A stretch of 19,270 bases of DNA from a virus (lineage: Duplodnaviria > Heunggongvirae > Uroviricota > Caudoviricetes). The notes beneath the pieces were generated by a model that had not been told where the DNA came from, made no database searches, and saw only the letters and a list, made by a program, of their open reading frames with translations. Within the stretch, counting starts at the first letter, position 1, and each line of letters begins with the position of its first letter. Location: IMG/VR virus record IMGVR_UViG_2648501186_000011, positions 1 through 19,270 of that record; one strand, given 5' to 3'. Both the position numbers and the translations under genes were made by a program. Below are positions 2,743 to 18,956 of this stretch, piece after piece.

Positions 2743-4797
2743 TCATTCACCTTTTTTCTGAACTACGGTCAGTGCGCTATGGTCCATAACAGCCCAATCA
2801 AGGTCAGCCCATACGCGGAAGTACAGGTTGCCAGCCGCGCGACCTGTGGTATCGTCGCAATCCAGTTCCAGCGATCCGAAGTCTGCAATAACAAGGGAGC
2901 TAAAGTCACCAAACAGCATGGTATCCTGAGCAACTACACCAGAGCCATAGATCGGACGGTTAACCAGCTTGTCACCTTCTACCAGGAAGCCCGGAACGTT
3001 AGCAGCTTTGAGTTGCGCTGCCAGTTCAGCTTTAACAACACCACGGGTAGCAAATGCCAGATCCGCTTCGTTATAACCTTTATCGGTCAGTTCAGCTACC
3101 AGTTTCAGGAACTCGGCATAAGTCCAATCAATCTGTTTAACTTTGCCAGCATCGGTCAGCATCTTAGTCAGGCCATCACGAGCGTTAGTGTTAGCAGCAT
3201 TGGACAGAATCGCTTTTTCCAGAGCGATAGCACTATGTTTCAGCATGTGCTCACCAACGATAGCACCGATGTTAGGCAGAGTGATAGCGGCCTGGCGAGT
3301 TACAGGAACAATTCCATTGAATGTCTTAAGAGTCATCGGCTGTGCTGCAAACTTGATAGTACCTTCACCAGCGGATTGGCCTTCTGCAACAAAACCGAAG
3401 TTTTCCAGATTGCTAGAAGTCAGAGACGGCAGAGAAACAGGACCAGTTGCGTTAATGGTACGAGCGCCCAATTTACCCAGAATCGAGCGTTCCATGATCA
3501 TATCAACGAAGCAATCATGGCGGATTTCTTCACCAACTACTGGTTTCAGGGATTCCATGTTCTGACCAGCACGCAGAGCAGACGCCGGAATGAATACGGA
3601 GTTAGAACGCTGTGCGCGACCACGCGCTGCGGCTTTACGTGCTTCTTCCTGAGAATATTCAGCTTCTGCGCCAGTCAGGGCTTTACCCTCTGCGATTGCA
3701 CGCACAGCCTTATTAAGATCGAAACGGGATTCCAGAGTTTTAATGGTATCGGTCATGGTAATTTTTCCTTTAACAAAAGTTTTAGATTCGGTAGTATTTA
3801 GTGCGCGTGCTTTTTCTTTAAAATTTTCAATAGTCACGGCACTATCTTTAATTGCAGCTTCAATTACGTCTTCGGAGATATTTAGATGTTTTCCGATAGC
3901 ACGAATTTCGGCGGTATCTTCGCGAGAACGTTCAAACGGTTTTTCGTCGTCTTCAATCTTTTCTTCTTCGACTGGTTCGGATGTATTTTCCGTTTCGTCG
4001 TTCTCGTCTGTATCTTTATTTAGTTCTTCTGTTTCTTCCGGTTCATCTTCGGAACGTTCTTCTTTTTCTTCTGGCGTTACTTCTTGCGGTTCTTCCACAT
4101 CTTCGCCACTGTCAGCACTATTTCCAGAATCGGAATCAATTTCTTCATTTTCTTGTTCCTCTTTCTCTTCTTCGGAACGTTTTTCTTCATCTTCCGGTTT
4201 AATTTCTTCGACCGGAGTATCTTTAATTTCGTCTTCCACTTGTTCACCCTCCAAAACAATCATTTCGTTGTCTGTATTTAGAGAGCGTCCAACACCCGCA
4301 TTAAATGGATCTGCGGCACACGTTACAAGACTGCATTCGAAAGGTTGCCAGCGTGTAACATAATAGATCCCTTTGTTAAAATCGGCTTTGCCATCAAGAA
4401 CGTTATAACCGACGCTAACTTGTGAAAGTGTTCCCTCTTTTACCTTCTCAAAGCATTCATTAGCCAGTTGGCCTACTTTGGAGAATTGGACAAGGCAACG
4501 ACCTATACGGTCTTCGTCAATACGAGCGGAGCCAGGAACAATCTTACCGATATGAAGATCCAGATTGTGATTAAACAGAAGACTTGCGTTAGTCTCGTTT
4601 AAAACGGATAGATCAACCGCTGATTCATCGTGTACGAGAATCTCTTTTAATTCGACTTGCTCGCCGTCCTGATTCATGTAATAACGTGTATAAGGAGCCT
4701 CGCTTGAGAAAGCCAATTCAATAATTCGTTCGTCTTTTTCTTCGATAAAATCAGGGGTATCTACCGCAACACTACGACGGAATTGTTTTGTTGTCAT
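2743..4797 (-). CDS. Prohead protease / acidic linker / major capsid protein (HK97 fold) fusion, 684 aa
   Basis: N-terminal ~175 aa carry motifs I associate with HK97-type prohead proteases (LLFNHNLDLHIGK, VSVGY, ECSLVTCAADPFNAG). Residues ~185-300 are extremely Glu/Asp-rich low complexity. The C-terminal ~320 aa look like an HK97-fold capsid domain and the gene sits where a capsid gene belongs, after the portal. SD AAGGTG 4 nt upstream. Confidence 0.7.
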   Translation of the reverse strand: MTTKQFRRSVAVDTPDFIEEKDERIIELAFSSEAPYTRYYMNQDGEQVELKEILVHDESAVDLSVLNETNASLLFNHNLDLHIGKIVPGSARIDEDRIGRCLVQFSKVGQLANECFEKVKEGTLSQVSVGYNVLDGKADFNKGIYYVTRWQPFECSLVTCAADPFNAGVGRSLNTDNEMIVLEGEQVEDEIKDTPVEEIKPEDEEKRSEEEKEEQENEEIDSDSGNSADSGEDVEEPQEVTPEEKEERSEDEPEETEELNKDTDENDETENTSEPVEEEKIEDDEKPFERSREDTAEIRAIGKHLNISEDVIEAAIKDSAVTIENFKEKARALNTTESKTFVKGKITMTDTIKTLESRFDLNKAVRAIAEGKALTGAEAEYSQEEARKAAARGRAQRSNSVFIPASALRAGQNMESLKPVVGEEIRHDCFVDMIMERSILGKLGARTINATGPVSLPSLTSSNLENFGFVAEGQSAGEGTIKFAAQPMTLKTFNGIVPVTRQAAITLPNIGAIVGEHMLKHSAIALEKAILSNAANTNARDGLTKMLTDAGKVKQIDWTYAEFLKLVAELTDKGYNEADLAFATRGVVKAELAAQLKAANVPGFLVEGDKLVNRPIYGSGVVAQDTMLFGDFSSLVIADFGSLELDCDDTTGRAAGNLYFRVWADLDWAVMDHSALTVVQKKGE

Positions 4798-4840: not shown

Positions 4841-6364
4841 TTATTCATTTTGAGTATAAGGCGATTTTTCTTTTTCAGTTTCACCCTCACTCACGACGCA
4901 TGTATTTAGCATGTGTTTTTCAGATTCAATTTGTTTGAAAGTCTGAGCAACGTCATAACCCATTTCAGTGATAATCTGAGATTTGGATTTTAAGCCATTT
5001 TCTAACATCATTATTTCGGCTGAGATATCTTTCACCGGATCAACAGACTCAACTTTCGGCCTACTTACCGAAGTAACATCAATAATTGATTCGATCTGAG
5101 TCATTCGAATATTGAGTTTCGAATTAATCACCGCATGTTCAAGGAATGCTTGGAATAACGGTAGAATAACGGTATCAATTAAGCGATCTTGATGCGCTTT
5201 GAAGCGGTTCTTTTCCATTAATGAGCCAAATCTCGCTGCGGAGAAATTCACTGAGCTAGTATCACCAGTCAATGCGGTTTTATAGCTGGAGAGACCCATA
5301 CTAATGGACGTTAGCATTGCCTCGTTAAACGTTTCGAAGTCATCGCCGCCTTGTGTGCTTTGCACCGTCTTAATATCTTGCCCCGGTTCCAAAACGTTAA
5401 TAGTACCCGGTTCGAAATCGGTGATCATCGTCGGCGGTTGATAGTTTTCCGGTTCTTCTTCACCAACATCAAAGGAGTCTTGATTTTCTTTTTCGCTTGT
5501 GATAAACGCCATGCTACTTGCGTGCACGCGTTTGCCAATGATTACGGTTTCGCGGAATGCTTCAAGGTGAGCTATATCTTTGATTATTGGCAGAAAATCC
5601 GTACATCCGCGTAAGGCTTCGGCTGTGCTGGGGATAAAGTAATGCAGCACTCGTTCCGCTGGGATTCGTACACGTTCACCGATGAAGGATTGAGTAAACA
5701 GATCGCGCCGTCTAAACCAGTATGCAACAGGTTTTTCATCTTCGTACTCGATACCAGCATAAACGACATTACCGTTATCTAGAGTACGCTGGTCCGCCCA
5801 ATCAACATGATCCGCGCCATAGATGGACACTTGCAGATCTTTACCATCTTCATGGAGTACCAGAAACGCATCACCGCCCATCACACGCTCTTTTTCCATC
5901 AGCTTTAAGCACTCAAGGAAGTTAATCTTTCCGTTGCGTGAGAATCGTTTCTGAGAGCTAGCCCAACGCCAGAAAGCATTCTCGATTGCTGTGTTAGTGG
6001 TTGCGTCCAGCTTTTCCCCTTTCATAACGAAGGTTCGAGGCTGTAAACCAGTACCTACCACGGAATCGATGACATGTTGGCAATAACGGGAGCCGATAGA
6101 AGTGTTTAACGCAAGGTGTCGCCCTTGATTGTATAAACGTGATGCAGATCCCTTGATCGCGGCGTTAATGCTGCCAGTGATAACCTGACGCGCTGTGCTG
6201 CCTTCAATGCGATCTGATTCAACCAATCCTAATGATCGTTGATGTAGAGCCTTCGTAAATTGTTCAATCTTACGATCTACGAATAATTTGCGGTGCTGGC
6301 GAATACCGATTTTCTTAACCGGATTCACTGGCAATTCTTTTTTACGTTTGAAAAAATTAAACAT
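4841..6364 (-). CDS. Portal protein (lambda gpB-like position and size), 507 aa
   Basis: Size and position between the terminase large subunit and the capsid gene match a lambda-type portal. SD AAGGA 6 nt upstream. Family called from context, not from a motif I can pinpoint. Confidence 0.6.
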   Translation of the reverse strand: MFNFFKRKKELPVNPVKKIGIRQHRKLFVDRKIEQFTKALHQRSLGLVESDRIEGSTARQVITGSINAAIKGSASRLYNQGRHLALNTSIGSRYCQHVIDSVVGTGLQPRTFVMKGEKLDATTNTAIENAFWRWASSQKRFSRNGKINFLECLKLMEKERVMGGDAFLVLHEDGKDLQVSIYGADHVDWADQRTLDNGNVVYAGIEYEDEKPVAYWFRRRDLFTQSFIGERVRIPAERVLHYFIPSTAEALRGCTDFLPIIKDIAHLEAFRETVIIGKRVHASSMAFITSEKENQDSFDVGEEEPENYQPPTMITDFEPGTINVLEPGQDIKTVQSTQGGDDFETFNEAMLTSISMGLSSYKTALTGDTSSVNFSAARFGSLMEKNRFKAHQDRLIDTVILPLFQAFLEHAVINSKLNIRMTQIESIIDVTSVSRPKVESVDPVKDISAEIMMLENGLKSKSQIITEMGYDVAQTFKQIESEKHMLNTCVVSEGETEKEKSPYTQNE

Positions 6365-6944: not shown

Positions 6945-8870
6945 TTAGAAGTTATTAACCCAGCTATTACGACGCACAGGACGCGCCATAGGACGACGAT
7001 TAGGCTTATTGTGAGGGATTGGCTTAGTTTCCTGTTTTTGCTCGTCAGAATGCGATTTAGGAGCTTCTACGGCGGTTTCTGTTTCACGGTTCAGCTTTTC
7101 TTTCAGTGCAATGAGTTTATCCCATGACATTTTTGAAAGAACATAGCGAGAAGCAGCCAGACAATACACAAAACAGTCGAGGCATTCGTTCCTCTGCGAT
7201 CCGGGATTTTTCACCCAACGTGTTCCGGTAGCGGTGCGCTTGATGGACTCACTAAGAAGCTGATCGAGATAGTCATCAGGAACGGTGTGTGATATCTCTA
7301 AGCCAATATGCGGATTATCCTTCAAGTTGCGTGTTAATAGCTCACGAACAGCGGTTTTACCGACGTTTACACCCAACATAAGCAATTCGTGACCACCCGT
7401 GGTAGTTGGCTTAACCGGAATCAGTGGAGCGTTACCGGAGGAACTCCCTTTAATGGCATGAAGATTTTTCCATTTGGTGCAAATGCGGTAGCCAGCTTGT
7501 GTAAATTTACCGTTCGAAGTATCAAGGAAACTAGCCAGAACAGGAACACGCTGGCCTGATACCGTGGTAAACCTGCTTTTCTGGAAGTTGATTAGCTTAT
7601 CCCATACAGGTGATTCGTATCTCTCACAGTTATAATCTCGGAAGACACGGTGATCGAGGATGTAAATCTTATCTTTCGCGATGCCTAGCATAGTTGACTC
7701 GACGCGATCCAACTGCTGGTCCACGCCAAATGTGGCGAAAATAACATCATCTGGGATATTTTCTACACAAACTTCGGTTTTCAGTTGTTCCAGTTCGTTG
7801 ACTTCTACCGCTGTTTCTGCGTCATCGTACACAGTGCCGAGAACTGTATTGTAAAAACTTTGTAAATCAAAGGTTTGCCACGCTTGCGAGAAGTCAGAAA
7901 CACATGATTTGATAGAGCTAAAAGGTGAATACAGACGGCTGATCCAGAATCCTGCTACATCACTTTCACGGGTAGCTCTCCATTCTCCTTGTGCAACCGC
8001 TCTAATGCGATCCCCTTCTGACCAATCACTCTGGCAATGAGGGCAAACATAACGGGCGCTTTCAACACATGGCAGATTGCGACCATCCTGATTTTTCCAC
8101 TCGAACTTAACATTTTCCCACTCGATCACCTGGTGTTTCCCGCAATGCGGACAAGGAACAAAGAATTTACGCTGATCACTTGATAACCATTGTTGATTAA
8201 TCGGTCCCAGCTTAGTGGTCGGGGTACTGGAAACGATAATTCTTGCTTCATCCCCGAAAGTGGTTGCGCGGTTAGCCGCAAGTGCAATCGGATCGCCCTC
8301 TTCACTAGCACTGGCAGCATCACATTCATCAAGCAGAATCAACGGGCTGGTTTTTGAACGCAAGGTTGATGGGCTAGTAAGCGATACCATGTAAAGAAAA
8401 TGATTAGTCTTAAGCTGAATCTGGCTATTGTTATTAACAGCGTTGCGATCATTCTTGTCGGTGATTGCTTCGCGTAATGCCGGACATGCTTCAATGGCTG
8501 GTCGGATCTTCCCGCTTAGGTACTGAGCGGTTTCCTTCGTGGTTGCTTGGCCTATGATGATATTGCTGGGATCGTTAGCTATCTTATTGAATAATATACC
8601 ATTAAGGATGGAAGTTTTGCCGATCTGGGCACTTGTACAAAAAATGTACTTTTTCTTATTCTCTAAGAAAGGAGCATCAATCATGCCTTTCTGAAAGCTG
8701 GTTAATTTAATTTTAGCGCCAGCTTGTGGTCCATCCACTAGGATCATGTTTTCCTCGCACCATTCAGATGGTAAACGCTTAATTGGCGGTCGGATATGTT
8801 TTGATACTTCGTTAAAAATTCGCTTGAGTTTAAATTTATTTGAGAGTTTTTTCACCGTGATTATCCTCAT
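6945..8870 (-). CDS. Terminase large subunit, lambda gpA family (641 aa)
   Basis: Similar in length to lambda gpA as I recall it. Walker A-like [10 protein letters not shown], Walker B-like [11 protein letters not shown], a Cys pair [13 protein letters not shown], and a C-terminal [16 protein letters not shown] that resembles the lambda gpA C-terminus (from memory). No SD before the ATG, and an in-frame stop 18 nt upstream excludes a longer N-terminus. Confidence 0.85.
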
Positions 8871-8925: not shown

Positions 8926-9531
8926 ATGCTAATTAATCAGCAACAAAGAGATGAATTAGAATTAGCATTTTCTTATTGTACCGGTCATGAATATCGTTTA
9001 CCAGTTAAGCACAAGCATTTAAAAACAGATATAACCACTTCTGGCTTTAGTCGTGATGAAGCGAAACAGATTTTAATCGAGTTGTATCGCGATCATGGGT
9101 ATACCGATATTCATAACTTCTTTAAGAAGCATCGCACATCACAGACAGAGTTCCAGAGAGTCCGTGAATGGTTTGATTTTGATATCAAGCGTTATTATCG
9201 AGTGGATGACGGTCCTATCTATCGGTTGCAGTGGACACCGATCAGGGAAGTGTTGAAACAGAAGAGATTGAATCATGCCATTACACGCTATCGTAACGAG
9301 GCTTTCAAGAAAGGCTATGGTGATACAAGGGAACTATTCGTTGAACTCGCTAACGTGAAATATAGCCACTATTACAACGATCCTACAGGGTTCTTCGAAG
9401 TGCTTCGCAAGGTTGATATTAGTCGGGGTACATATTATTCACGGCTGAGGAAGTACGGGATTAAGGCAGAGTTCTTTATGTCGGTTGACGACTCACCCAT
9501 GTTCAAGATAAAATCTAAGTCCTCTAAATAA
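8926..9531 (+). CDS. Hypothetical basic protein (201 aa) with C-terminal HTH-like motif
   Basis: ORF track; SD AAGGGGG 5 nt upstream. The C-terminal VDISRGTYYSRLRKYGIK resembles the recognition helix of the two small GRP-HTH proteins in this window. Confidence 0.6.
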   Translation: MLINQQQRDELELAFSYCTGHEYRLPVKHKHLKTDITTSGFSRDEAKQILIELYRDHGYTDIHNFFKKHRTSQTEFQRVREWFDFDIKRYYRVDDGPIYRLQWTPIREVLKQKRLNHAITRYRNEAFKKGYGDTRELFVELANVKYSHYYNDPTGFFEVLRKVDISRGTYYSRLRKYGIKAEFFMSVDDSPMFKIKSKSSK

Positions 9532-9566
9532 TATTGAGAAATCACTATTGTTTGGAGGAAACTACT

Positions 9567-9794
9567 ATGACTACTAAAGCTACTCGCGGTCGCCCTGCCC
9601 GTTTTACCCGTGAACAGATGGCTGATATTGCCTACGCTTACTATACAGCGGATCGCGGGAAGGAATCGAAAGAACAGATTCTTAGTGAACATGGGATTTC
9701 AGTAGCCCAATTCTATAAGAATATGAAGAAGTTAGACATTAAATTCTATGTTCAGATCGATGACGGTCAGATCGTAGAAGCAACAGGTTTTTGA
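9567..9794 (+). CDS. Small DNA-binding protein, GRP arm plus resolvase/Hin-type HTH (75 aa; start refined from 9534)
   Basis: ATG at 9567 has SD GGAGGA 7 nt upstream. The N-terminal TRGRPARFT is an AT-hook/Hin-like minor-groove arm and HGISVAQFYKNMKKL is a resolvase-type HTH. Paralogous to the 14077..14292 product. Confidence 0.6.
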   Translation: MTTKATRGRPARFTREQMADIAYAYYTADRGKESKEQILSEHGISVAQFYKNMKKLDIKFYVQIDDGQIVEATGF

Positions 9795-9809: not shown

Positions 9810-9833
9810 GCCACTCTTCGGAGTGGCTTTTTT
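9810..9833 (+). terminator. Intrinsic terminator after the 8926-9794 module
   Basis: GCCACUC-UUCG-GAGUGGC followed by UUUUUU. Confidence 0.75.
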
Positions 9834-10607: not shown

Positions 10608-11480
10608 TTAAATTCCAAAGTATTCCAGCGATCCGGCGTTCTTACGAATCAGTGCGGCAGTATTATTGACGATTGCACGAGCATTGTTAGGCTGCGGTAA
10701 TTTCAAAGTTGCTCGTTGTTCTTCTTCAATCAATCCCAATTTAACCAGCACAGGTAAACAGTCAGTTGTGAACTCAAGCTGACCATGTGCTGATTGTCGA
10801 GCGTACATGTAAGCAGGAGGAAGAACATCATAGCCGTTAGGCTTACCAGAAGCATCCAGACGACGCTCAATGTGTTTAGCCTCACATAACCCTTTCAGAA
10901 TGCGCTGTACCTTGCCAGAGCCTCGTTTTTCGCCCAATAAGCGGGTTAAGCTGTGTGCGTCAATGGCACGGCGAACATGGAGATCAACTAATTGTTGATT
11001 CTCGTGAAGCAATTGTTCTTTTTCTTCTTCAAGTTTAACCGCTTCGCGCATCCAGTCGAGCTTAGTCATCTTGCTTGCGTCTGGGAACGGATTAGCTTCT
11101 TTGTTTGCCAATTCTGTTAGTAAACGTGCGTTTTCCTCTTTCAGAATCTTCCATTCTTTAATTACACGATTACGAATCGGTGTGCTATATCCAGTGACAA
11201 GAGTCATGCAAAGTTCTTCGTTCAAATGGCATACCGGATCTTTAACAACAATACCTAAGCCATTGATTTTCTCCACAAGACCAAAATTGGACTCCTGCGG
11301 GATACCCAATTCTTTGTACATCACGCGAATGTCACGCAAAACATGTTTATGTTTCTTTCCGGTAAACTCGGCGATCTGGAAAGATGACATAGTTAATTCT
11401 TTTTCTACAGAGTCGTTTGCAGCAACCAGAGACACGGAAGCAGTTTTAACAGCAGTATTCATAGTAGTAACAGTATTCAT
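10608..11480 (-). CDS. Rha-family phage regulatory protein / antirepressor-like (290 aa)
   Basis: N-terminal FQIAEFTGKKHKHVLRDIRVMYKELGI matches the HxxVLRDI signature I associate with the Rha family. The start is ambiguous between M1 (11480, SD AAGGGG 10 nt upstream) and M7 because of an 18-bp tandem duplication. Confidence 0.65.
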   Translation of the reverse strand: MNTVTTMNTAVKTASVSLVAANDSVEKELTMSSFQIAEFTGKKHKHVLRDIRVMYKELGIPQESNFGLVEKINGLGIVVKDPVCHLNEELCMTLVTGYSTPIRNRVIKEWKILKEENARLLTELANKEANPFPDASKMTKLDWMREAVKLEEEKEQLLHENQQLVDLHVRRAIDAHSLTRLLGEKRGSGKVQRILKGLCEAKHIERRLDASGKPNGYDVLPPAYMYARQSAHGQLEFTTDCLPVLVKLGLIEEEQRATLKLPQPNNARAIVNNTAALIRKNAGSLEYFGI

Positions 11481-12022: not shown

Positions 12023-12490
12023 TTACAGCATATCTAAGCCTTCATCGTAACCATAGAAGCCATTCTGAGAAGAGAAACAGATTGGAGCGTAGTCGTCGTC
12101 ATCTTCGTCTTGTTCATCGCGTTCTGGTGCTTTCTGAGCGGTTTCTTTGCCGTAGTTAAACATTGCTTCATCCAGTTCATAGACAGTAACGAAGCTACCC
12201 AGGTCAATGTCACCGGAACGGACTTCAAACGGAAGATCATCACGAACAATAATTGCTGGTAGATTCTGGTACTTTAAGCGTTCTTCATCGGTGAAGACGT
12301 TAACAACAATGGTCGGCTTCTTATTACGGCAAAACGCATACCATGCACTAGAGAAATGAGATTCATCAGAGTTGAAAAGAATGTTGTAACCACGTTCACG
12401 GAACATCTTCATTAACTTGTCATTGTGGAAGCTATCAGCATCAAAACCTAACAGGATGAAAGGAGTAGTGGTAGTCATTTTATGGTTCAT
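12023..12490 (-). CDS. Hypothetical acidic protein (155 aa)
   Basis: ORF track; SD AGAGGA 8 nt upstream. First gene leftward of the repeat hub. An inverted repeat AGTGAA-N9-TTCACT (12512-12532) lies in its leader. Confidence 0.6.
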   Translation of the reverse strand: MNHKMTTTTPFILLGFDADSFHNDKLMKMFRERGYNILFNSDESHFSSAWYAFCRNKKPTIVVNVFTDEERLKYQNLPAIIVRDDLPFEVRSGDIDLGSFVTVYELDEAMFNYGKETAQKAPERDEQDEDDDDYAPICFSSQNGFYGYDEGLDML

Positions 12491-12564
12491 AGTGGAAATC
12501 CTCTAAAAGAAAGTGAATCAAGTAAGTTCACTATTATTTATAAAGAGAAAATTCTTGTTATTAT

Positions 12565-12882
12565 GAAAAGAGTGATCTGGTAGAGTCCAAAACTGGTCTG
12601 TACTTGAAAGGTGATTGGATTCAGTCGGGCTAAAGCCCTCCTTCATAGATTTTGATTAAATCATCACCAAAACGAAGAAGTATCTTTAGAATATAAGAAT
12701 CTTTCTTTTGAAGAAATAATAATAATCAAACAAGATGGACGCTCCCTGAGCGTCTGCGAAGCATATCTAATTCCTTCCAGTATCATCAAAGTGATCTAGA
12801 ATCAGTTTGTAATCATTATCTTCAAAGTGATTGTAATATCTTTATCTTGAAAGTGATTATAACTACCTTCTTCAAAGTGATC
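12565..12882. repeat. Direct-repeat family (A/T)TCTTSAAAGTGAT, four good and two degenerate copies
   Basis: Cores at 12787-12795, 12823-12831, 12849-12857 and 12873-12881 spaced 24-36 bp; degenerate copies near 12565-12577 and 12603-12616. Confidence 0.7.
12738..12754. other. Perfect palindrome GACGCTC-cct-GAGCGTC
   Basis: 7-bp inverted repeat with a 3-nt spacer in non-coding DNA. Confidence 0.4.
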
Positions 12883-12943
12883 TTGAATCATCATGTAAAC
12901 CAGATTAAAATCCCTTCCTGAATGATTTCAAAACAGATTACTC

Positions 12944-12959
12944 GCGCCCCGCAGGGCGC
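12944..12959 (+). other. Hairpin GCGCCC-CGCA-GGGCGC followed by a T-rich stretch
   Basis: 6-bp stem then ATAATATTCTTTTCTTTT on the plus strand; terminator-like, sharing the GCCCCGCAGG core with 6921-6940. Confidence 0.4.
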
Positions 12960-13074
12960 ATAATATTCTTTTCTTTTATCTACAATCTCTTTCATACCAA
13001 CTCTTTACTATTAACTATTACATATTACATATGACACCCTTCTAAGCCTTGTCCTGTCTGGGTTTCCGTGATTT

Positions 13075-13166
13075 TTGTACATCCTTGTACATCGTAGTAC
13101 ATGTGTTGTACATCCTTGTACATCCTTGTACACGTCACGTACATAGATGTACATCCTTGTACATCT
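13075..13166. repeat. Helically phased array of nine TTGTACATCC-type repeats
   Basis: GTACA begins at 13077, 13087, 13097, 13108, 13118, 13128, 13139, 13149 and 13159, a 10-11 bp period, so every copy is on one face of the helix. Confidence 0.8.
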
Positions 13167-13249
13167 AGGTTAAAAACCAATCAAAAATAGCCATAAAATC
13201 ACCATTTTGAGGGTGTATTTGCTCAATATTTCATCGTGTTTTTGTGATT

Positions 13250-13322
13250 CTGTACAGCAAATCTGTGTCTTGTACACCTTGTACATCTAATACATGTCTT
13301 GTACACCTTGTACATCTAATAC
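13250..13322. repeat. Second TGTACA cluster with two ~28-bp direct repeats
   Basis: gtcttgtacaccttgtacatctaatac occurs twice (about 13267-13293 and 13296-13322). GTACA at 13252, 13272, 13281, 13301 and 13310. Confidence 0.75.
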
Positions 13323-13495
13323 CGGGGAATAGCCCCCCTAATACCGGGGGATTTGTGGATACTAATACCGGGGAAAAAAAACCTAATACCGGGGGATTTT
13401 TATGTGGATGAATGATGGCCTAATCCGGGGGATTCTCTTACAGGACGGTTATCATTTACCCCCTAATACCGGGGAAATTAACCTAATCCGGGGGA
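13316..13495. repeat. Seven iteron-like direct repeats CTAAT(A)CCGGGG(G)A with DnaA-box-like motifs
   Basis: Copies start at 13316, 13338, 13362, 13383, 13420, 13463 and 13483, mostly 20-24 bp apart. TGTGGATAc (13353-13361) and TGTGGATGA (13403-13411) resemble the DnaA box TGTGGATAA. An AT-rich stretch follows at 13540-13640. Confidence 0.75.
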
Positions 13496-13643
13496 TTTTT
13501 GCTTCCAAAACGGGGATATCGCGGGGAAACCCTTAAATTCATTCAAATATTTTGATAGAAAATTCTTGTATATTATTTAACCAAAAAATCATCAAAAATC
13601 GCTGTAGCTTAATGATTTAAAAGGAATTTTCAAAAGGTCACCG

Positions 13644-13652
13644 TGCTATAAT
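13644..13652 (+). promoter_or_regulatory. Possible extended -10 promoter element (TGcTATAAT)
   Basis: TATAAT at 13647-13652 with TG at 13644-13645; only a weak -35 (TTTTCA region). Confidence 0.35.
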
Positions 13653-13732
13653 AGGTTATAAAGGTTGATAATCATTATTCGCCATTTTCACACAAAAATT
13701 TTGATAGTCTTTTCTCGCTTAGGTCAAGGGTA

Positions 13733-13761
13733 TTGACATCTGTCAAGGATTATTTTATGCT
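13733..13761 (+). promoter_or_regulatory. Sigma70-like promoter TTGACA, 17-nt spacer, TATGCT, with overlapping palindrome
   Basis: -35 at 13733-13738, -10 at 13756-13761. The palindrome TTGACA-tc-TGTCAA (13733-13746) recalls the 11980-12000 operator-like site. Confidence 0.5.
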
Positions 13762-13942
13762 TTTTCTCGTTGGTAGGGGTTGAAATTTTCAAAACAATCC
13801 CCATATAGATGATAAGCAAGATTTTCTCGCTACTAAATACATGTGAGCGATGATTATGACTCACTGACCTGAAAAGCTGAAACAGCATAAAATTCTAAAA
13901 AATGCGGTTTTCAGTTTTTCAAAAAGGGGTACAGGAGTCAGA

Positions 13943-13984
13943 ATGATTAAAAAATCGCCAGATAATATTCTGTCTATAGCGTAA
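13943..13984 (+). other. 13-codon mini-ORF (MIKKSPDNILSIA) with a strong SD
   Basis: AGGAG (13932-13936) 6 nt before the ATG at 13943; stop at 13982-13984. It is followed about 35 nt later by the terminator hairpin at 14021-14041, a leader-peptide-like arrangement. Confidence 0.35.
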
Positions 13985-14020
13985 AACTAAGCGCATTACA
14001 GAATAATATAAATATCATCG

Positions 14021-14041
14021 AGAGCGGTTAACGCTCTTTTT
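14021..14041 (+). terminator. Intrinsic terminator/attenuator upstream of the first rightward gene
   Basis: AGAGCG-GUUAA-CGCUCU followed by UUUUU, 20 nt upstream of the SD for the 14077 gene. Confidence 0.6.
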
Positions 14042-14076
14042 AATAAGAAAGATTTGTCTCTTAAGGGGAAGAAACT

Positions 14077-14292
14077 ATGAAAAACTCAATCATGGGGCGT
14101 CCGGTTAAAATCACCGAAGAAAAATACAAAGAAATCCTGATTGCTTACCACTCACAAGTTAATGCAACGAATGCTGATCGTGATGCACTTCTGGCAAAAT
14201 ATGGAATTACTCGCCGGACGTTTTCAAGGCTAGCTCATCGTTACCCAAATGTGAAAGTCGTAACTAAAGTGGTGAATGTAGAAATAGCATAA
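14077..14292 (+). CDS. Small DNA-binding protein, GRP arm plus resolvase/Hin-type HTH (71 aa)
   Basis: SD AAGGGG 8 nt upstream. MGRPVKIT...LLAKYGITRRTFSRLAHRY is paralogous to the 9567..9794 product. Confidence 0.65.
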   Translation: MKNSIMGRPVKITEEKYKEILIAYHSQVNATNADRDALLAKYGITRRTFSRLAHRYPNVKVVTKVVNVEIA

Positions 14293-14327
14293 ATCGCTTA
14301 CTGAGAATTACATTATGAAACTTTTAA

Positions 14328-14363
14328 CCAATAAAAAAGCCCCCTTGCGGCAACAAGGAGGCT
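14328..14363 (-). terminator. Strong hairpin with U-tract, oriented for the minus strand, between two plus-strand genes
   Basis: Minus-strand RNA AGCCUCCUUG-UUGCCG-CAAGGGGGCU (10-bp stem with one G.U) followed by UUUUUUAUU. On the plus strand the A-tract precedes the hairpin, so it may work bidirectionally. Confidence 0.5.
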
Positions 14364-14396
14364 TGAAATGAAGATTTGATACGGAGATAAAAAGAA

Positions 14397-15512
14397 ATGT
14401 CTAACAAGAATAACACTTCAATTGTATTTATTAACTTCAAAAACGACGAAAGCATTCTGAGCAACAATGAACAGATCGTGATGAAAGATTGTGGTGAAAA
14501 TGTCACTACCGTTTTCAAAGAAACTGCAAACACTCTAACCGAACTGGTTGCTAAAGTTCGCGGATATGGTGCTGTTCGTAAAGCTGAGTTTGAGATGGTT
14601 CAAAACTATACCCGCTCTGTTACGGTTGGCGACAAGAAATATAACAAAAACACACATAAGCTGATCGCTAATGATGAAATCAAACTGGTACAGATTTGCA
14701 CTACCGACAAAAACGCTATTTTCTTGTTGGTTGTTCTTGAAAATGAAGCTGGTTTACGTCGCGGTGTTCTGCGTCACCGTTCCATGCGTAATGAAGCTGG
14801 TGTGATTGGTTCTAAAATCCATAACCGCGCATACACTTCTACTTCCAACTGGATCATTGCTGGCGAGAACGAAGGTAAAACAGGCGAGACTTTCAACATT
14901 GCTTTCTTCTCTGCTTTTGACGAAAAGAAACATGTTAAATGGAAACTGAATAATGAAGCCGTAGAAGCTCCTGTGCGCGATTCTGAGAAACAATCTGTTG
15001 AAATCGATGAATCCCACATCATGGCTATGATTCGCGGCGTAGAGAAGCGTTTACGTGATGAATTTAACGCTAAACTTGAAGCTAAAGACAAAGAGATCGC
15101 GGAACTGAAAGCACGTTTAGAAGCAGTAGAAATCAAGACTATTGACACTACTGAAAATCCTGTTTCTAAAGACGTTGTTGCTGATCTGCAATGCGAGATC
15201 CAGATCGCCAGCGACTTCCAGAAAGCAACCAACAAACTCAATGCAAAATTAGAGCGTCGTGATAATGGTCAGCGTCTGTCTGGTGATGATATTCAGGTTA
15301 TTCTGCGCGGTGATATGAAAGAGATTAATGCTAAGTTTGCACCGAAAGGTGTTTTTGCTAGCAAGATTAACGAAGCCCAGGTCGATGAATTGATGCACGC
15401 GTTAGAAGCAGACACCAACGAGACTGTTAAAGCCGCTAATGATGACGTTGCGGCATCTGCAATCGTTTCTGACGAATATTTGAAAGAATTAGATGCACTT
15501 TTGGCTATGTAA
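14397..15512 (+). CDS. Hypothetical protein A (371 aa): N-terminal globular domain plus C-terminal coiled-coil-like region
   Basis: ORF track; SD GGAG 10 nt upstream. The C-terminal half is rich in charged, heptad-like sequence (KLEAKDKEIAELKARLEAVE). No recognisable family. Confidence 0.7.
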   Translation: MSNKNNTSIVFINFKNDESILSNNEQIVMKDCGENVTTVFKETANTLTELVAKVRGYGAVRKAEFEMVQNYTRSVTVGDKKYNKNTHKLIANDEIKLVQICTTDKNAIFLLVVLENEAGLRRGVLRHRSMRNEAGVIGSKIHNRAYTSTSNWIIAGENEGKTGETFNIAFFSAFDEKKHVKWKLNNEAVEAPVRDSEKQSVEIDESHIMAMIRGVEKRLRDEFNAKLEAKDKEIAELKARLEAVEIKTIDTTENPVSKDVVADLQCEIQIASDFQKATNKLNAKLERRDNGQRLSGDDIQVILRGDMKEINAKFAPKGVFASKINEAQVDELMHALEADTNETVKAANDDVAASAIVSDEYLKELDALLAM

Positions 15513-15539: not shown

Positions 15540-16631
15540 ATGAAGACTTACACCGACATTACCAACAAACAATTTTCTACCGCTGATCATTCGGTGGTTA
15601 GGCTTGCTATCTGGTCAGATATGAAATTTACCTTTAAATTTGGGTGTAAAGGATTTAAGATTAATTTTTCAGTTGACCACGTATTACCGGACCGCGCTGA
15701 TGACCTGATTAAGATTTTGCGTTATCGTGGCTATGGCCTAACCAATGGTGAGTTAACCATGATCTACAGCTTCGTTAATAAATCCGGTGATATGCTTGTT
15801 CGTAATATTACTGGTTATGAAATTAACGGTAAAAAAGGTGTTGCTATGACCGTTGTTGGTCGTGGTGGTATGGTTGCCGTTTATACATTCGGGTATAGCG
15901 CATTTTATAGCAAGAAAAATGATTACTATTATGGCAAGCGCACTAAACTAGATCATTACGGTCGTTATAGCCTGGGTGTTGCGGCTAAATATGAAAGTTG
16001 TATTGTTCTTAAAGATTCGATTCATGGTGAATTTGAAATCATGTCACAATACGACAAAACGCCTTATGACTACTACCGTGTAAAAGTTAAAGTACCGAAA
16101 GTGTTAGAGCCTCACGAATCTCATGTTGAATGCCGTGCTAAAACAATTAAAAAACTGCGTGATGAGAATGACCAGCTTTCTACGCGTCTAAGCAAGTTAA
16201 AAACCAAAGTACGAGATAAACGTAATCGTCACACTATCGAAGAACGTAAAGCTGCATACGATGAATACGTGGTTACTTTAAAGAAACGTGATGCTTTGCG
16301 TGAGTATTTTTGCAAAATCGATGCGATGTGCGCTGGTCGTTTGTACAGAGGAAAGAATGTGGCTGCGGTGAGTTTTGAGGAAATGGCAGAATTAACGCCT
16401 ATCAAGGAAGAGATTCAACTACCGAATGAAAAGGTTGCTTTGGTTAACGAAAAACGTAAACTAGTTGAAAAGGTGGCACAGGTGGATAAAGAGATTAAAA
16501 CTAGCGAAGGAATGGTTAAAGAGGCGTACATCGCTTTGCGTGATTCCTTAGAGATTCAAATCAAGCATATTGACCTTGAGATCTTGAAACTGTCCATGCC
16601 TAACCGCCCTACTCTACGTCTTGTTGCTTAA
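15540..16631 (+). CDS. Hypothetical protein B (363 aa): aromatic-rich N-terminal domain plus basic coiled-coil-like C-terminus
   Basis: ORF track; SD AAGAGGA upstream; 27 nt after gene A, so probably co-transcribed. Ends at the strong terminator at 16644-16676. Confidence 0.7.
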   Translation: MKTYTDITNKQFSTADHSVVRLAIWSDMKFTFKFGCKGFKINFSVDHVLPDRADDLIKILRYRGYGLTNGELTMIYSFVNKSGDMLVRNITGYEINGKKGVAMTVVGRGGMVAVYTFGYSAFYSKKNDYYYGKRTKLDHYGRYSLGVAAKYESCIVLKDSIHGEFEIMSQYDKTPYDYYRVKVKVPKVLEPHESHVECRAKTIKKLRDENDQLSTRLSKLKTKVRDKRNRHTIEERKAAYDEYVVTLKKRDALREYFCKIDAMCAGRLYRGKNVAAVSFEEMAELTPIKEEIQLPNEKVALVNEKRKLVEKVAQVDKEIKTSEGMVKEAYIALRDSLEIQIKHIDLEILKLSMPNRPTLRLVA

Positions 16632-18214: not shown

Positions 18215-18283
18215 CGGTCAAAATCAATGACTTGACCAGTTGACACTGATCCGGTCATCAATATAATCGGTCACACTTTGACC
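18215..18283. promoter_or_regulatory. Cluster of CGGTCA / TGACC half-sites around the lipoprotein promoter
   Basis: CGGTCA at 18215, 18252 and 18268; TTGACC at 18232 and 18278. Includes the palindrome GGTCA-cactt-TGACC (18269-18283) just downstream of the -10. Confidence 0.45.
18240..18267 (+). promoter_or_regulatory. Near-consensus sigma70 promoter TTGACA, 16-nt spacer, TATAAT
   Basis: -35 TTGACA at 18240-18245 and -10 TATAAT at 18262-18267, about 115 nt upstream of the lipoprotein start codon. Confidence 0.7.
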
Positions 18284-18383: not shown

Positions 18384-18956
18384 ATGTTTAAAAAGATTGG
18401 TGTTATTGCTGCGGTTGTTCTGTTATCTGGTTGTGCGTCTATGGCTGAACTTGAAAAGCGTAGTGATGGTCTTTCGGCTTATCCTGGCATCAAGTATGAA
18501 CAGTTTCAGGGGTATGAGATTGTAAGTAGCTATACAACTACAAAGGCAACTCGCCCATATAACAAACTTAAAATGCAATCCTGTCTCTATGACACTGTGC
18601 GTAATGACATTATGGTGCATACTGACGCATTCAATGAGATTAAAGATTTAGAAGCTGGTGGTCGTATTGTTGAACGCGCCCGTTCTAATAGTGCTATTTT
18701 TAGTGGCAACTTCGAGCAAACTATTACCTTGCGTACTATTGTAGGTGACACTCCCTATACTCAATATGTGAAGTATAAAGGTATTGCTTTACCGTCCGGT
18801 GATAAGACACAGTTCACATTTACCGGATTGAGTGTTAAGCCTAAATCTGGTGGCGAGCATCCACTATGGTCACGTAAAACAAATAGCCCAGAAGAAAGTA
18901 TTAAAGAACTTGATAAGCTGGCGGATGAGATTGCCGATTGTCTTAATGATGAATAA
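18384..18956 (+). CDS. Lipoprotein (190 aa), candidate superinfection-exclusion factor
   Basis: Signal peptide with lipobox MFKKIGVIAAVVLLSG|C. SD GGAGGA 6 nt upstream. Exclusion role is by analogy only. Confidence 0.75.
   Translation: MFKKIGVIAAVVLLSGCASMAELEKRSDGLSAYPGIKYEQFQGYEIVSSYTTTKATRPYNKLKMQSCLYDTVRNDIMVHTDAFNEIKDLEAGGRIVERARSNSAIFSGNFEQTITLRTIVGDTPYTQYVKYKGIALPSGDKTQFTFTGLSVKPKSGGEHPLWSRKTNSPEESIKELDKLADEIADCLNDE

What the first reader, a model, noticed from the sequence alone, without database searches (positions are those of the whole stretch)
13921..14076. Leader mini-ORF plus terminator hairpin ahead of the first rightward gene
A 13-codon ORF with a strong SD is followed by a terminator 20 nt upstream of the next SD. 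This resembles a translation-coupled attenuator or a small-RNA gene gating entry into the rightward operon.
Basis: inference. Interest (0 to 1): 0.4.

Follow-up and report, generated by a model that had tools for sequence, protein, structure and literature searches.

The report
Conserved leader terminator, incidental mini-ORF
A short GC-rich hairpin followed by a run of T sits just before the first rightward gene of an uncharacterised E. coli prophage and is kept in all related prophages, so it probably acts as a leaky transcription stop, whereas the 13-codon mini-ORF beside it looks accidental.

Summary
The mini-ORF runs 13943-13984 (MIKKSPDNILSIA) behind AGGAG at 13933-13937. The hairpin GAGAGCG-GTTAA-CGCTCTT (14020-14038) carries a T5 run and lies about 23 nt before the SD of the 71-aa gene (ATG 14077).

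Only the hairpin stands up.
- A GC-stem plus TTTTT motif is expected 0.04 times per shuffled window and occurs twice.
- The same stem core and T-run lie 30-40 nt before the homologous gene in three otherwise unrelated leader types from E. coli and Salmonella prophages.

The mini-ORF does not stand up.
- AGGAG-N4-9-ATG occurs 3 times against 2.8 expected.
- The SD reads AGGGG in nearly all close relatives, and one relative has a frameshift.
- Leader types B and C have no such ORF.
- The SD and AUG lie inside a -34 kcal/mol hairpin.
- Forcing the ORF single-stranded leaves the terminator pairing probability at about 1.

Best reading: a roughly 270-nt structured leader from a conserved sigma-70-like promoter and operator ends in a modest intrinsic terminator that gates a rightward operon of unknown function. 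A dual sRNA/mRNA role of the IsrK or P4 CI type is not excluded. No transcript data were available. Ordinary in kind, and not in Rfam.

The parts
13733..13761 (+). Candidate sigma-70 promoter P_R (TTGACA-17-TATGCT), with the palindrome TTGACAtcTGTCAA (13733-13746) over the -35. The presumed leader start is near 13768.
   Evidence: Best promoter-like match in the region, 10/12. Conserved in families A and B, including Salmonella, where it reads TTGACG-17-TATACT. The start site is inferred, not mapped.
13776..13801 (+). Hairpin P1 (GGGGTTG...CAATCCC) at the 5' end of the leader.
   Evidence: Found in the folds. Conserved in E. coli families A and B. In family C the same hairpin lies directly in front of the terminator.
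13822..13839 (+). Composite motif TTTTCTCG-CT-ACTAAATA. It is the third copy of TTTTCTCG; the others are at 13710 and 13762.
   Evidence: TTTTCTCG occurs 5 times in the window against 1.3 expected. The same composite lies before the first leftward gene at 12551-12535 on the minus strand. Its function is unknown.
13849..13948 (+). Long imperfect hairpin H1. Its 3' arm contains the mini-ORF's SD and AUG.
   Evidence: -34.5 kcal/mol. The whole leader has z = -5.3. The architecture is kept in the diverged L035. The changes 13936 A>G and 13940 A>G keep U.G pairs on the + strand only.
13943..13984 (+). 13-codon mini-ORF MIKKSPDNILSIA, with SD AGGAG at 13933-13937. Judged incidental.
   Evidence: The SD is AGGGG in most relatives, and L017 has a +A frameshift that leaves 7 codons. 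The C-terminus varies in L035 and L036. It is absent from families B and C.
13962..14009 (+). Hairpin H2 (ATAATATTCTGT / ACAGAATAATAT arms). The mini-ORF stop codon lies in its apical part.
   Evidence: Inverted repeat I8, 92% complementary. -12.9 kcal/mol. One compensatory pair, and a variable apex in L035 and L036.
14007..14014 (+). TATAAATA motif just upstream of the terminator.
   Evidence: Conserved in all leader families at 69-73 nt from the gene-1 ATG. Its role is unresolved.
14020..14041 (+). Terminator hairpin T: GAGAGCG-GTTAA-CGCTCTT plus a T5 run.
   Evidence: The stem core GAGC/GCTC and T5-6 are present in all 36 related loci matched by pattern and in families A, B, C and Salmonella B. 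L022 A>G gives G.U on the + strand only.
14065..14292 (+). SD (GGGGA, 14065-69) and gene 1, a 71-aa three-helix protein. It is the first gene of the rightward operon, followed by 14397-15512 and 15540-16631.
   Evidence: ORF list. No Pfam, PHROG or NCBIfam hit. The AF2 model has three helices at pLDDT 75, with no significant PDB match. It is homologous to the 60-aa alleles and to the paralog at 9534-9794.

Best explanation
The element is the 3' part of a structured, untranslated leader of about 270 nt. The leader belongs to the rightward operon of an uncharacterised temperate phage of about 37 kb that carries a large serine recombinase and is integrated in E. coli.

I infer that transcription starts at a conserved sigma-70-like promoter whose -35 is overlapped by a palindromic operator. 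The RNA then folds into hairpin P1, a long hairpin H1 and hairpin H2. It next meets a short GC-rich hairpin followed by five U (14020-14041). This acts as a modest, leaky intrinsic terminator about 35 nt before the start codon of the first gene.

Only read-through transcripts would express the small three-helix protein and the two unknown proteins of about 365 aa behind it. The hairpin therefore sets or gates how much promoter activity reaches the operon. The 13-codon ORF is a by-product of the sequences that form H1 and H2 and is probably not translated.

Shown: the motifs, their non-randomness, their conservation, and the lack of structural coupling to the ORF.
Inferred: the promoter start site, actual termination and its efficiency, and whether read-through is regulated.
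For: - The terminator motif is non-random: 2 observed against 0.04 expected.
- The same stem core and T5-6 run sit 30-40 nt before the homologous first gene in every relative. This holds for family A (window group, L035, L036), family B (E. coli), family B in Salmonella and family C. It holds although the leaders upstream and the spacers downstream are unrelated.
- The loops differ (GTTAA, GAAAA, GAAAT) while the stem is kept. L022 A>G gives G.U on the + strand only.
- No sigma-70 promoter-like site lies between the terminator and the gene. The gene therefore depends on read-through.
- The promoter and operator are conserved from E. coli to Salmonella.
- The leader folds far better than shuffles, z = -5.3. 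Its architecture is kept in the diverged L035. 97.9% of cells are paired, with eight pairs that change on one side and stay paired through G.U on the + strand.
- Against a role for the mini-ORF.
Against: - There are no transcript data, so termination is unproven.
- The hairpin is short (5-7 bp, -7 to -10 kcal/mol) with only five U. It scores borderline in my rough terminator score and was not listed by the scan tool.
- The stem never covaries; its sequence is simply invariant. That fits a sequence-specific site or a recombination junction equally well.
- Covariation support for the leader structure is nearly nil: 1 compensatory pair in A2 and 0 in the family-B alignment.
- A conserved TATAAATA just upstream, at a fixed distance from the ATG, is not explained by a plain terminator.
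Confidence: 0.55

Rival explanations
1. Dual-function leader. The terminated product (P1-H1-H2-T, about 195-275 nt) is itself a stable regulatory RNA. It would act in trans or in cis on the read-through mRNA or on other phage or host targets. Precedents are Gifsy-1 IsrK and the P4 CI / N15 CA / P1 c4 leader-derived RNAs. On this view the swapped leader cassettes A, B and C would be specificity alleles.
For: - The architecture of promoter, structured RNA, Rho-independent terminator and read-through into downstream genes is the one described for IsrK (PMC4825925).
- The variable leader cassette (13879-14019) is exchanged as a unit between a conserved promoter and a conserved terminator, independently of the gene-1 allele. 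Salmonella has a B leader with an A-type gene.
- An AU-rich single-stranded stretch precedes the terminator, as in many sRNAs.
- The leader is strongly structured.
Against: - No Rfam family, including C4 and isrK, matches at gathering score or at E <= 10.
- No conserved complementarity to a target was found. The 12-nt match of 13910-21 to the gene-1 start (I7) is lost in L035.
- The U-tail is short for Hfq binding. This rests on my own knowledge.
- There are no expression data.
Confidence: 0.2
2. Translation of the 13-codon ORF is coupled to formation of the terminator, as in a classical ribosome-mediated attenuator.
For: - In the window allele the ORF has AGGAG at a 5-nt spacing.
- It stays open in L035 (15 codons) and L036.
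- Its stop lies in H2, 35 nt before the terminator.
Against: - The SD is AGGGG in 12 of 14 distinct close assemblies and in L035. L017 is frameshifted to 7 codons.
- No SD-preceded ORF exists in the leaders of families B and C, which share the terminator.
- The SD-plus-ATG pattern occurs at the chance rate.
- The SD and AUG are paired in H1 at -34.5 kcal/mol. The terminator pair probabilities stay at about 1 when 13930-13999 is forced open. No antiterminator alternative exists.
- There is no run of regulatory codons.
- All substitutions in the ORF are non-synonymous.
Confidence: 0.05
3. The conserved TATAAATA (14007-14014) is the -10-like element of a proximal promoter for gene 1. Such a promoter might need a phage factor. 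The hairpin would then be the 5'-terminal stem-loop of that mRNA and at the same time insulate it from upstream transcription.
For: - TATAAATA lies 5-11 nt before the hairpin and 69-73 nt before the ATG in all families.
- The same 15-mer, TATAAATAATAGTGA, occurs in family C and 47-52 nt before the first leftward gene. There it coincides with a 9/12 sigma-70-like site and no terminator follows.
Against: - There is no -35, and no acceptable sigma-70 -10 in the window allele. TATAAA lacks the -7 T.
- The scan lists no + strand promoter here.
- The invariant T5-6 run has no role in this model.
- A promoter firing straight into a hairpin plus U-run would be self-defeating.
- TATAAATA is not enriched in the window: 2 against 1.2 expected.
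Confidence: 0.1
4. The hairpin and its flanks are conserved mainly at the DNA level. They could be a module boundary or recombination junction of this mosaic phage group, or a protein-binding site next to the iteron-rich region. On this view they have little effect on transcription.
For: - The stem is invariant rather than covarying.
- The breakpoint between the B-type leader and the A-type gene in Salmonella falls at the 3' arm and T-run.
- The region borders 1 kb of iterons.
Against: - One-sided changes keep G.U pairing on the + strand only (L022 in T; 13936 and 13940 in H1), which points to an RNA.
- The T-run sits directly after a GC stem and is oriented with the gene in every relative.
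- This motif class is otherwise found only once in the window, at the end of a gene.
Confidence: 0.1

Closest known systems
Leader (5'-UTR) intrinsic terminators and attenuators that gate phage or operon expression. Examples are lambda tR'/6S RNA downstream of PR' and the terminator between the antitoxin RNA and the toxin gene in type III toxin-antitoxin loci (from my own knowledge).
   Same: A promoter is followed by a non-coding structured RNA and a Rho-independent terminator. The genes lie behind the terminator and can be expressed only by read-through.
   Different: No antiterminator (Q or N type) or qut/nut element was identified. The downstream genes are an uncharacterised small three-helix protein and two unknown proteins. 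The terminator is weaker than tR'. There are no tandem RNA repeats as in type III toxin-antitoxin loci.
Gifsy-1 IsrK (PMC4825925) and the P4 CI RNA system as summarised in that paper.
   Same: A prophage-encoded RNA ends at a Rho-independent terminator. Part of the transcripts read through to give the mRNA of downstream regulatory genes. In both cases a long untranslated leader precedes phage early or regulatory genes.
   Different: There is no sequence or covariance-model similarity (Rfam searches). No conserved intramolecular target sites of the seqA/seqC type were found in the window's leader. Trans action is untested.
Classical ribosome-mediated attenuators (trp, his, thr, leu and pheA leaders).
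   Same: A short ORF is followed by a terminator hairpin ahead of the first structural gene.
   Different: There are no regulatory codon run, no competing antiterminator hairpin and no conservation of the ORF or its SD. The ORF start is sequestered in a stable stem.

Membership tests
Intrinsic (Rho-independent) terminator | GC-rich stem-loop immediately followed by a U-tract on the transcribed strand. | tested here: met
   GAGCG/CGCTC core, extendable to 7 bp, with a 5-nt loop, -10 kcal/mol and T5. The motif class is expected 0.04 times per window and occurs twice.
Intrinsic (Rho-independent) terminator | Strength typical of efficient terminators (long stem, at least 6-8 U). | tested here: inconclusive
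   My rough score, with the formula recalled from memory, gives -17 to -1 against +21 for a trpA control and +10 for the family-C variant. The hairpin was not listed by the scan tool.
Intrinsic (Rho-independent) terminator | Transcript 3' ends map to the U-tract. | not testable with these tools
   No transcriptome or Term-seq data were available.
Ribosome-mediated leader-peptide attenuator | A leader ORF with a functional RBS that is conserved among relatives. | tested here: not met
   The SD is AGGGG in most relatives, L017 is frameshifted, and families B and C have no such ORF. The pattern occurs at the chance rate.
Ribosome-mediated leader-peptide attenuator | Mutually exclusive antiterminator and terminator structures whose choice depends on ribosome position. 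| tested here: not met
   The terminator pair probabilities are 0.85-1.0 whether or not 13930-13999 is held single-stranded.
Ribosome-mediated leader-peptide attenuator | A cluster of codons for the sensed amino acid. | tested here: not met
   MIKKSPDNILSIA has no residue more than twice.
C4 / P4 CI antisense RNA and IsrK (Rfam families) | A match to the family covariance model. | tested here: not met
   cmscan found nothing at gathering score and nothing relevant at E <= 10 in 12400-14600. Loci with family B, C and diverged A leaders also gave none.
C4 / P4 CI antisense RNA and IsrK (Rfam families) | Conserved complementarity between the leader RNA and target sites in the same transcript. | tested here: inconclusive
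   Only short matches were found (I2, I4, I7). I7 to the gene-1 start is not kept in L035.
Lambda-type nut site (boxA + boxB) | boxA (CGCUCUUA-like) followed by a boxB hairpin, together with an N-like protein. | tested here: inconclusive
   The 3' arm plus tail, CGCUCUUUUUAA, resembles boxA by eye only. No conserved hairpin follows it. No N- or Q-like protein was recognised.

The most novel reading that the evidence does not exclude
The leader cassettes are exchangeable. Type A is in this window; types B and C are in relatives. They lie between a conserved promoter/operator and a conserved terminator. They could encode allelic regulatory RNAs, a new unclassified family. Such RNAs would control read-through or translation of the early operon, or immunity, in a previously undescribed lineage of Enterobacteriaceae prophages that carry a serine recombinase. 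This would be analogous in logic to P4 CI or IsrK but unrelated in sequence.
Probability: 0.15. Interest if true: 0.55.

Novelty: new member of a known kind. Interest (0 to 1): 0.3.

Why it matters
If the hairpin is a working attenuator, it is the control point for the rightward operon of a prophage lineage whose regulatory and replication genes have no annotated homologues. None of them has a Pfam, PHROG or NCBIfam hit, and there is no nucleotide match in phage or plasmid collections. That gives an experimental handle on how this phage decides to express those genes.

The mosaic pattern is also a tidy example of module exchange at a terminator. The promoter and terminator are conserved, while the RNA cassette between them is swapped. 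It would matter more if the cassettes turn out to be specificity-determining RNAs.

The mini-ORF itself should not be annotated as a gene.

Tried and rejected
- **Nucleotide searches:** 12400-15500 against phage and plasmid collections gave no informative match.
- **Searches for more relatives:** The search for related loci with gene 1 or gene 2 in viral contigs found nothing. The genome-contig scans by protein pattern and by terminator pattern were empty, as was the viral-contig scan by terminator pattern.
- **RNA families:** Rfam at gathering score and at E <= 10 gave nothing. tRNA/tmRNA search gave none.
- **Protein function:** Pfam, PHROGs and NCBIfam found nothing for the rightward genes. 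Gene 2 has only 3 homologue clusters, all unnamed. The gene-1 model has three helices but no significant PDB match, and the profile against PDB sequences gave only noise.
- **Minus-strand promoter:** a promoter-like site in the terminator loop (TTAACC-17-TATTAT) was rejected because it is absent from families B and C.
- **Complementarity:** the matches I2, I4 and I7 were considered as P4-like target sites and rejected as not conserved in L035.
- **boxA reading of CGCTCTTTTTAA:** kept only as an untested lead.
- **Covariation:** the tests gave almost no compensatory changes, so structure claims rest on thermodynamics and wobble-compatible changes.

Full report
**Context**

The window is part of an E. 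coli prophage.
- The leftward genes include a Rha-family protein (10608-11480), a gpA-type large terminase (6945-8870), a lambda-type portal (4841-6364) and a protease-capsid fusion (2743-4797).
- The rightward genes after the finding are 14077-14292 (71 aa), 14397-15512 (371 aa) and 15540-16631 (363 aa). None has a Pfam, PHROG or NCBIfam match.
- In a complete genome, E. coli TO6, a related element spans about 37 kb and is inserted in ycdX. It carries a large 'recombinase family protein' at the far end.
- In the window's closest relatives the right end abuts hicAB/yncJ/ydcP.
- No phage or plasmid record matches the region at nucleotide level. The best TerL match in phage records is 46%. The lineage is therefore uncharacterised.

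**Observation**

- AGGAG lies at 13933-13937.
- ATG 13943 to TAA 13984 encodes MIKKSPDNILSIA.
- The hairpin GAGAGCG-GTTAA-CGCTCTT runs 14020-14038, with the T-run at 14037-14041.
- The next SD is at 14065-69 and the next ATG at 14077.

The hairpin is not a chance feature.
- A perfect 5-bp stem with at least 4 G/C, a loop of 3-8 and an immediate TTTTT occurs twice in the window on both strands. The mean over 100 dinucleotide shuffles is 0.04.
- The other instance, 9810-9832, lies right after a gene.
- The hairpin is modest, at -10 kcal/mol. It is borderline in my rough terminator score and was missed by the scan tool.

The SD-plus-ATG pattern is at the chance rate, 3 against 2.77 expected.

**Relatives**

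The exact 71-aa protein is encoded on many E. coli draft assemblies. Across 13500-14400 these differ from the window at only a few sites.
- 13936 is A only in the window, L004 and L011. Everywhere else it is G, which turns AGGAG into AGGGG.
- L008, L015 and L016 add a G at 13938.
- L017 has an extra A in the A-run at 13953, which cuts the mini-ORF to 7 codons.

Two more diverged type-A leaders were found (L035, L036).
- They keep an open frame, but with different C-termini: ...SREHD (15 codons) and ...FKS.
- All substitutions inside the ORF are non-synonymous.

The region is mosaic.
- 13538-13878 (promoter and operator) and 14300 onward are shared.
- 13879-14299 is replaced by an unrelated leader plus a 60-aa allele of gene 1 in L013, L014, L018, L021-L024 and L040-L044. 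I call this family B.
- Salmonella prophages combine a B-type leader with an A-type gene 1 that is 86% identical.
- A third leader, family C (L039), has a different promoter region.

All of these carry the same hairpin core (A/G)AGAGC(G)...(C)GCTCT followed by T5-6, 30-40 nt before the gene-1 ATG.
- The loops differ: GTTAA, GAAAA or GAAAT.
- The spacers downstream are unrelated.
- L022 has A>G in the 5' arm. That gives G.U on the + strand and a C/A mismatch on the minus strand.
- A search for SD-preceded ORFs of at least 5 codons finds one only in the window allele. Other type-A alleles and families B and C have none.

**Structure**

- From the presumed start (about 13768) to 14080 the RNA folds at -84 kcal/mol, with z = -5.3.
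- The fold has four elements: hairpin P1 (13776-13801), a long hairpin H1 (13849-13948, -34.5 kcal/mol), H2 (13962-14009, -12.9 kcal/mol) and the terminator.
- The mini-ORF's SD and the A and U of its AUG are paired in H1.
- The majority G at 13936 and a second A>G in L035 keep U.G pairs.
- The three-hairpin architecture is retained in L035.
- On the type-A alignment 97.9% of cells pair. Eight pairs change on one side and stay paired, and one pair is compensatory.
- The family-B alignment has no compensatory pair.
- Structure is therefore supported by energy and by wobble changes specific to the + strand, not by covariation.
- Forcing 13930-13999 or parts of it single-stranded, to mimic ribosomes, leaves the terminator pair probabilities unchanged at 0.85-1.0. 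No antiterminator alternative appears.

**Promoter side**

- TTGACA-17-TATGCT (13733-13761) is the best sigma-70-like site, at 10/12. Its -35 lies within the perfect palindrome TTGACAtcTGTCAA.
- It is conserved in families A and B, including Salmonella.
- No + strand promoter-like site lies between the terminator and gene 1. I therefore infer that gene 1 is expressed by read-through.

**Interpretation**

The most economical reading is a leaky intrinsic terminator at the end of a structured leader, gating the rightward operon. The mini-ORF is an accident of the H1 and H2 sequences.

Whether read-through is regulated, and by what, is unknown. No N-, Q- or Psu-like protein was recognised.

The architecture also fits a dual-function RNA of the IsrK type. 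There, a prophage sRNA ends at its terminator and read-through gives the mRNA of downstream genes (PMC4825925). That paper also summarises P4, where a leader-derived CI RNA causes premature termination. The exchange of the leader cassette as a unit is suggestive of such a role. However, Rfam models do not match and I found no conserved target complementarity.

One feature remains unexplained. TATAAATA lies just upstream of the hairpin, at 69-73 nt from the ATG in every family. A related composite, TTTTCTCG-NN-TA(C/T)TAAATA, occurs at 13822-13839 and, on the other strand, before the first leftward gene. This keeps alive a rival in which a proximal promoter abuts the hairpin.

**Verdict**

The hairpin is real and conserved. 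The mini-ORF reading is not supported. The kind of element is ordinary, a leader terminator in a phage operon. It sits in an unstudied prophage lineage, and its leader RNA belongs to no described family.

Noticed in passing
window 12490-13540: About 1 kb between the divergent operons is filled with three iteron families. TCTTCAAAGTGAT occurs about 4 times (12790-12885). TTGTACATCC occurs about 9 times (13075-13165) and about 5 more times (13251-13322). CTAATACCGGGG(G)A occurs about 8 times (13320-13500). The region could be an origin, a packaging site or a partition-like site.
   Followed up: no
window 13710, 13762, 13822, 18186, 18209 (+); 12544-12551 (-): The octamer TTTTCTCG occurs 5 times against 1.3 expected, and no shuffle reaches 5. 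The copies flank the candidate promoter at 13733-61 and lie upstream of a consensus TTGACA-17-TATAAT at 18241-18269, before the lipoprotein gene at 18384. A TTTTCTCT variant precedes the first leftward gene. These are probably sites for a phage regulator.
   Followed up: partly
window 14337-14364: A 12-bp GC-rich hairpin lies between gene 1 and gene 2 and is conserved in all E. coli families examined. Its T-run is only on the minus strand. One pair is C/A on the + strand and T.G on the minus strand. It therefore looks like a terminator for leftward transcription, possibly of an antisense RNA across the gene-2 start. No convincing minus-strand promoter was found.
   Followed up: partly
window 14077-14292, 9534-9794, 8926-9531: The small three-helix domain of gene 1 (GRPxKxTxE...GI...F..L..Y) occurs four times in the window. 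It is in gene 1, in the 86-aa ORF at 9534-9794 (E = 2e-6), and apparently twice in the 201-aa ORF at 8926-9531 (by eye from the translation). A metagenome contig (L037) has the same 201-aa plus small-ORF pair.
   Followed up: partly
window 12551-12520 (-): TTTTCTCTTTATAAATAATAGTGAAC lies 47-52 nt before the ATG of the first leftward gene and is conserved from E. coli to Salmonella. It coincides with a 9/12 sigma-70-like site (ATAACA-17-AATAAT). The 15-mer TATAAATAATAGTGA recurs directly before the terminator in leader family C.
   Followed up: partly
L021 8440-8645 and other family-B loci (not in the window): The family-B leader carries three hairpins in a row, each followed by T-runs. Two share GATATACAGTG, and several competing CACTG segments are present. 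RNAalifold predicts a multibranch fold but finds no compensatory changes.
   Followed up: partly
window 13851-13868: A 5-codon ORF (ATGATTATGACTCACTGA) lies at the 5' base of H1. E. coli family-B leaders have ATGATTGTTCACTTCTGA at the same place. It sits at the border between conserved and swapped sequence and is probably fortuitous.
   Followed up: no
window 13812-13824 and 14043-14055: The 13-nt direct repeat ATAAGCAAGATTT / ATAAGAAAGATTT brackets the H1-H2-terminator segment. In family C the P1 hairpin and the terminator are adjacent. The type-A segment may therefore have arisen by insertion or duplication.
   Followed up: no
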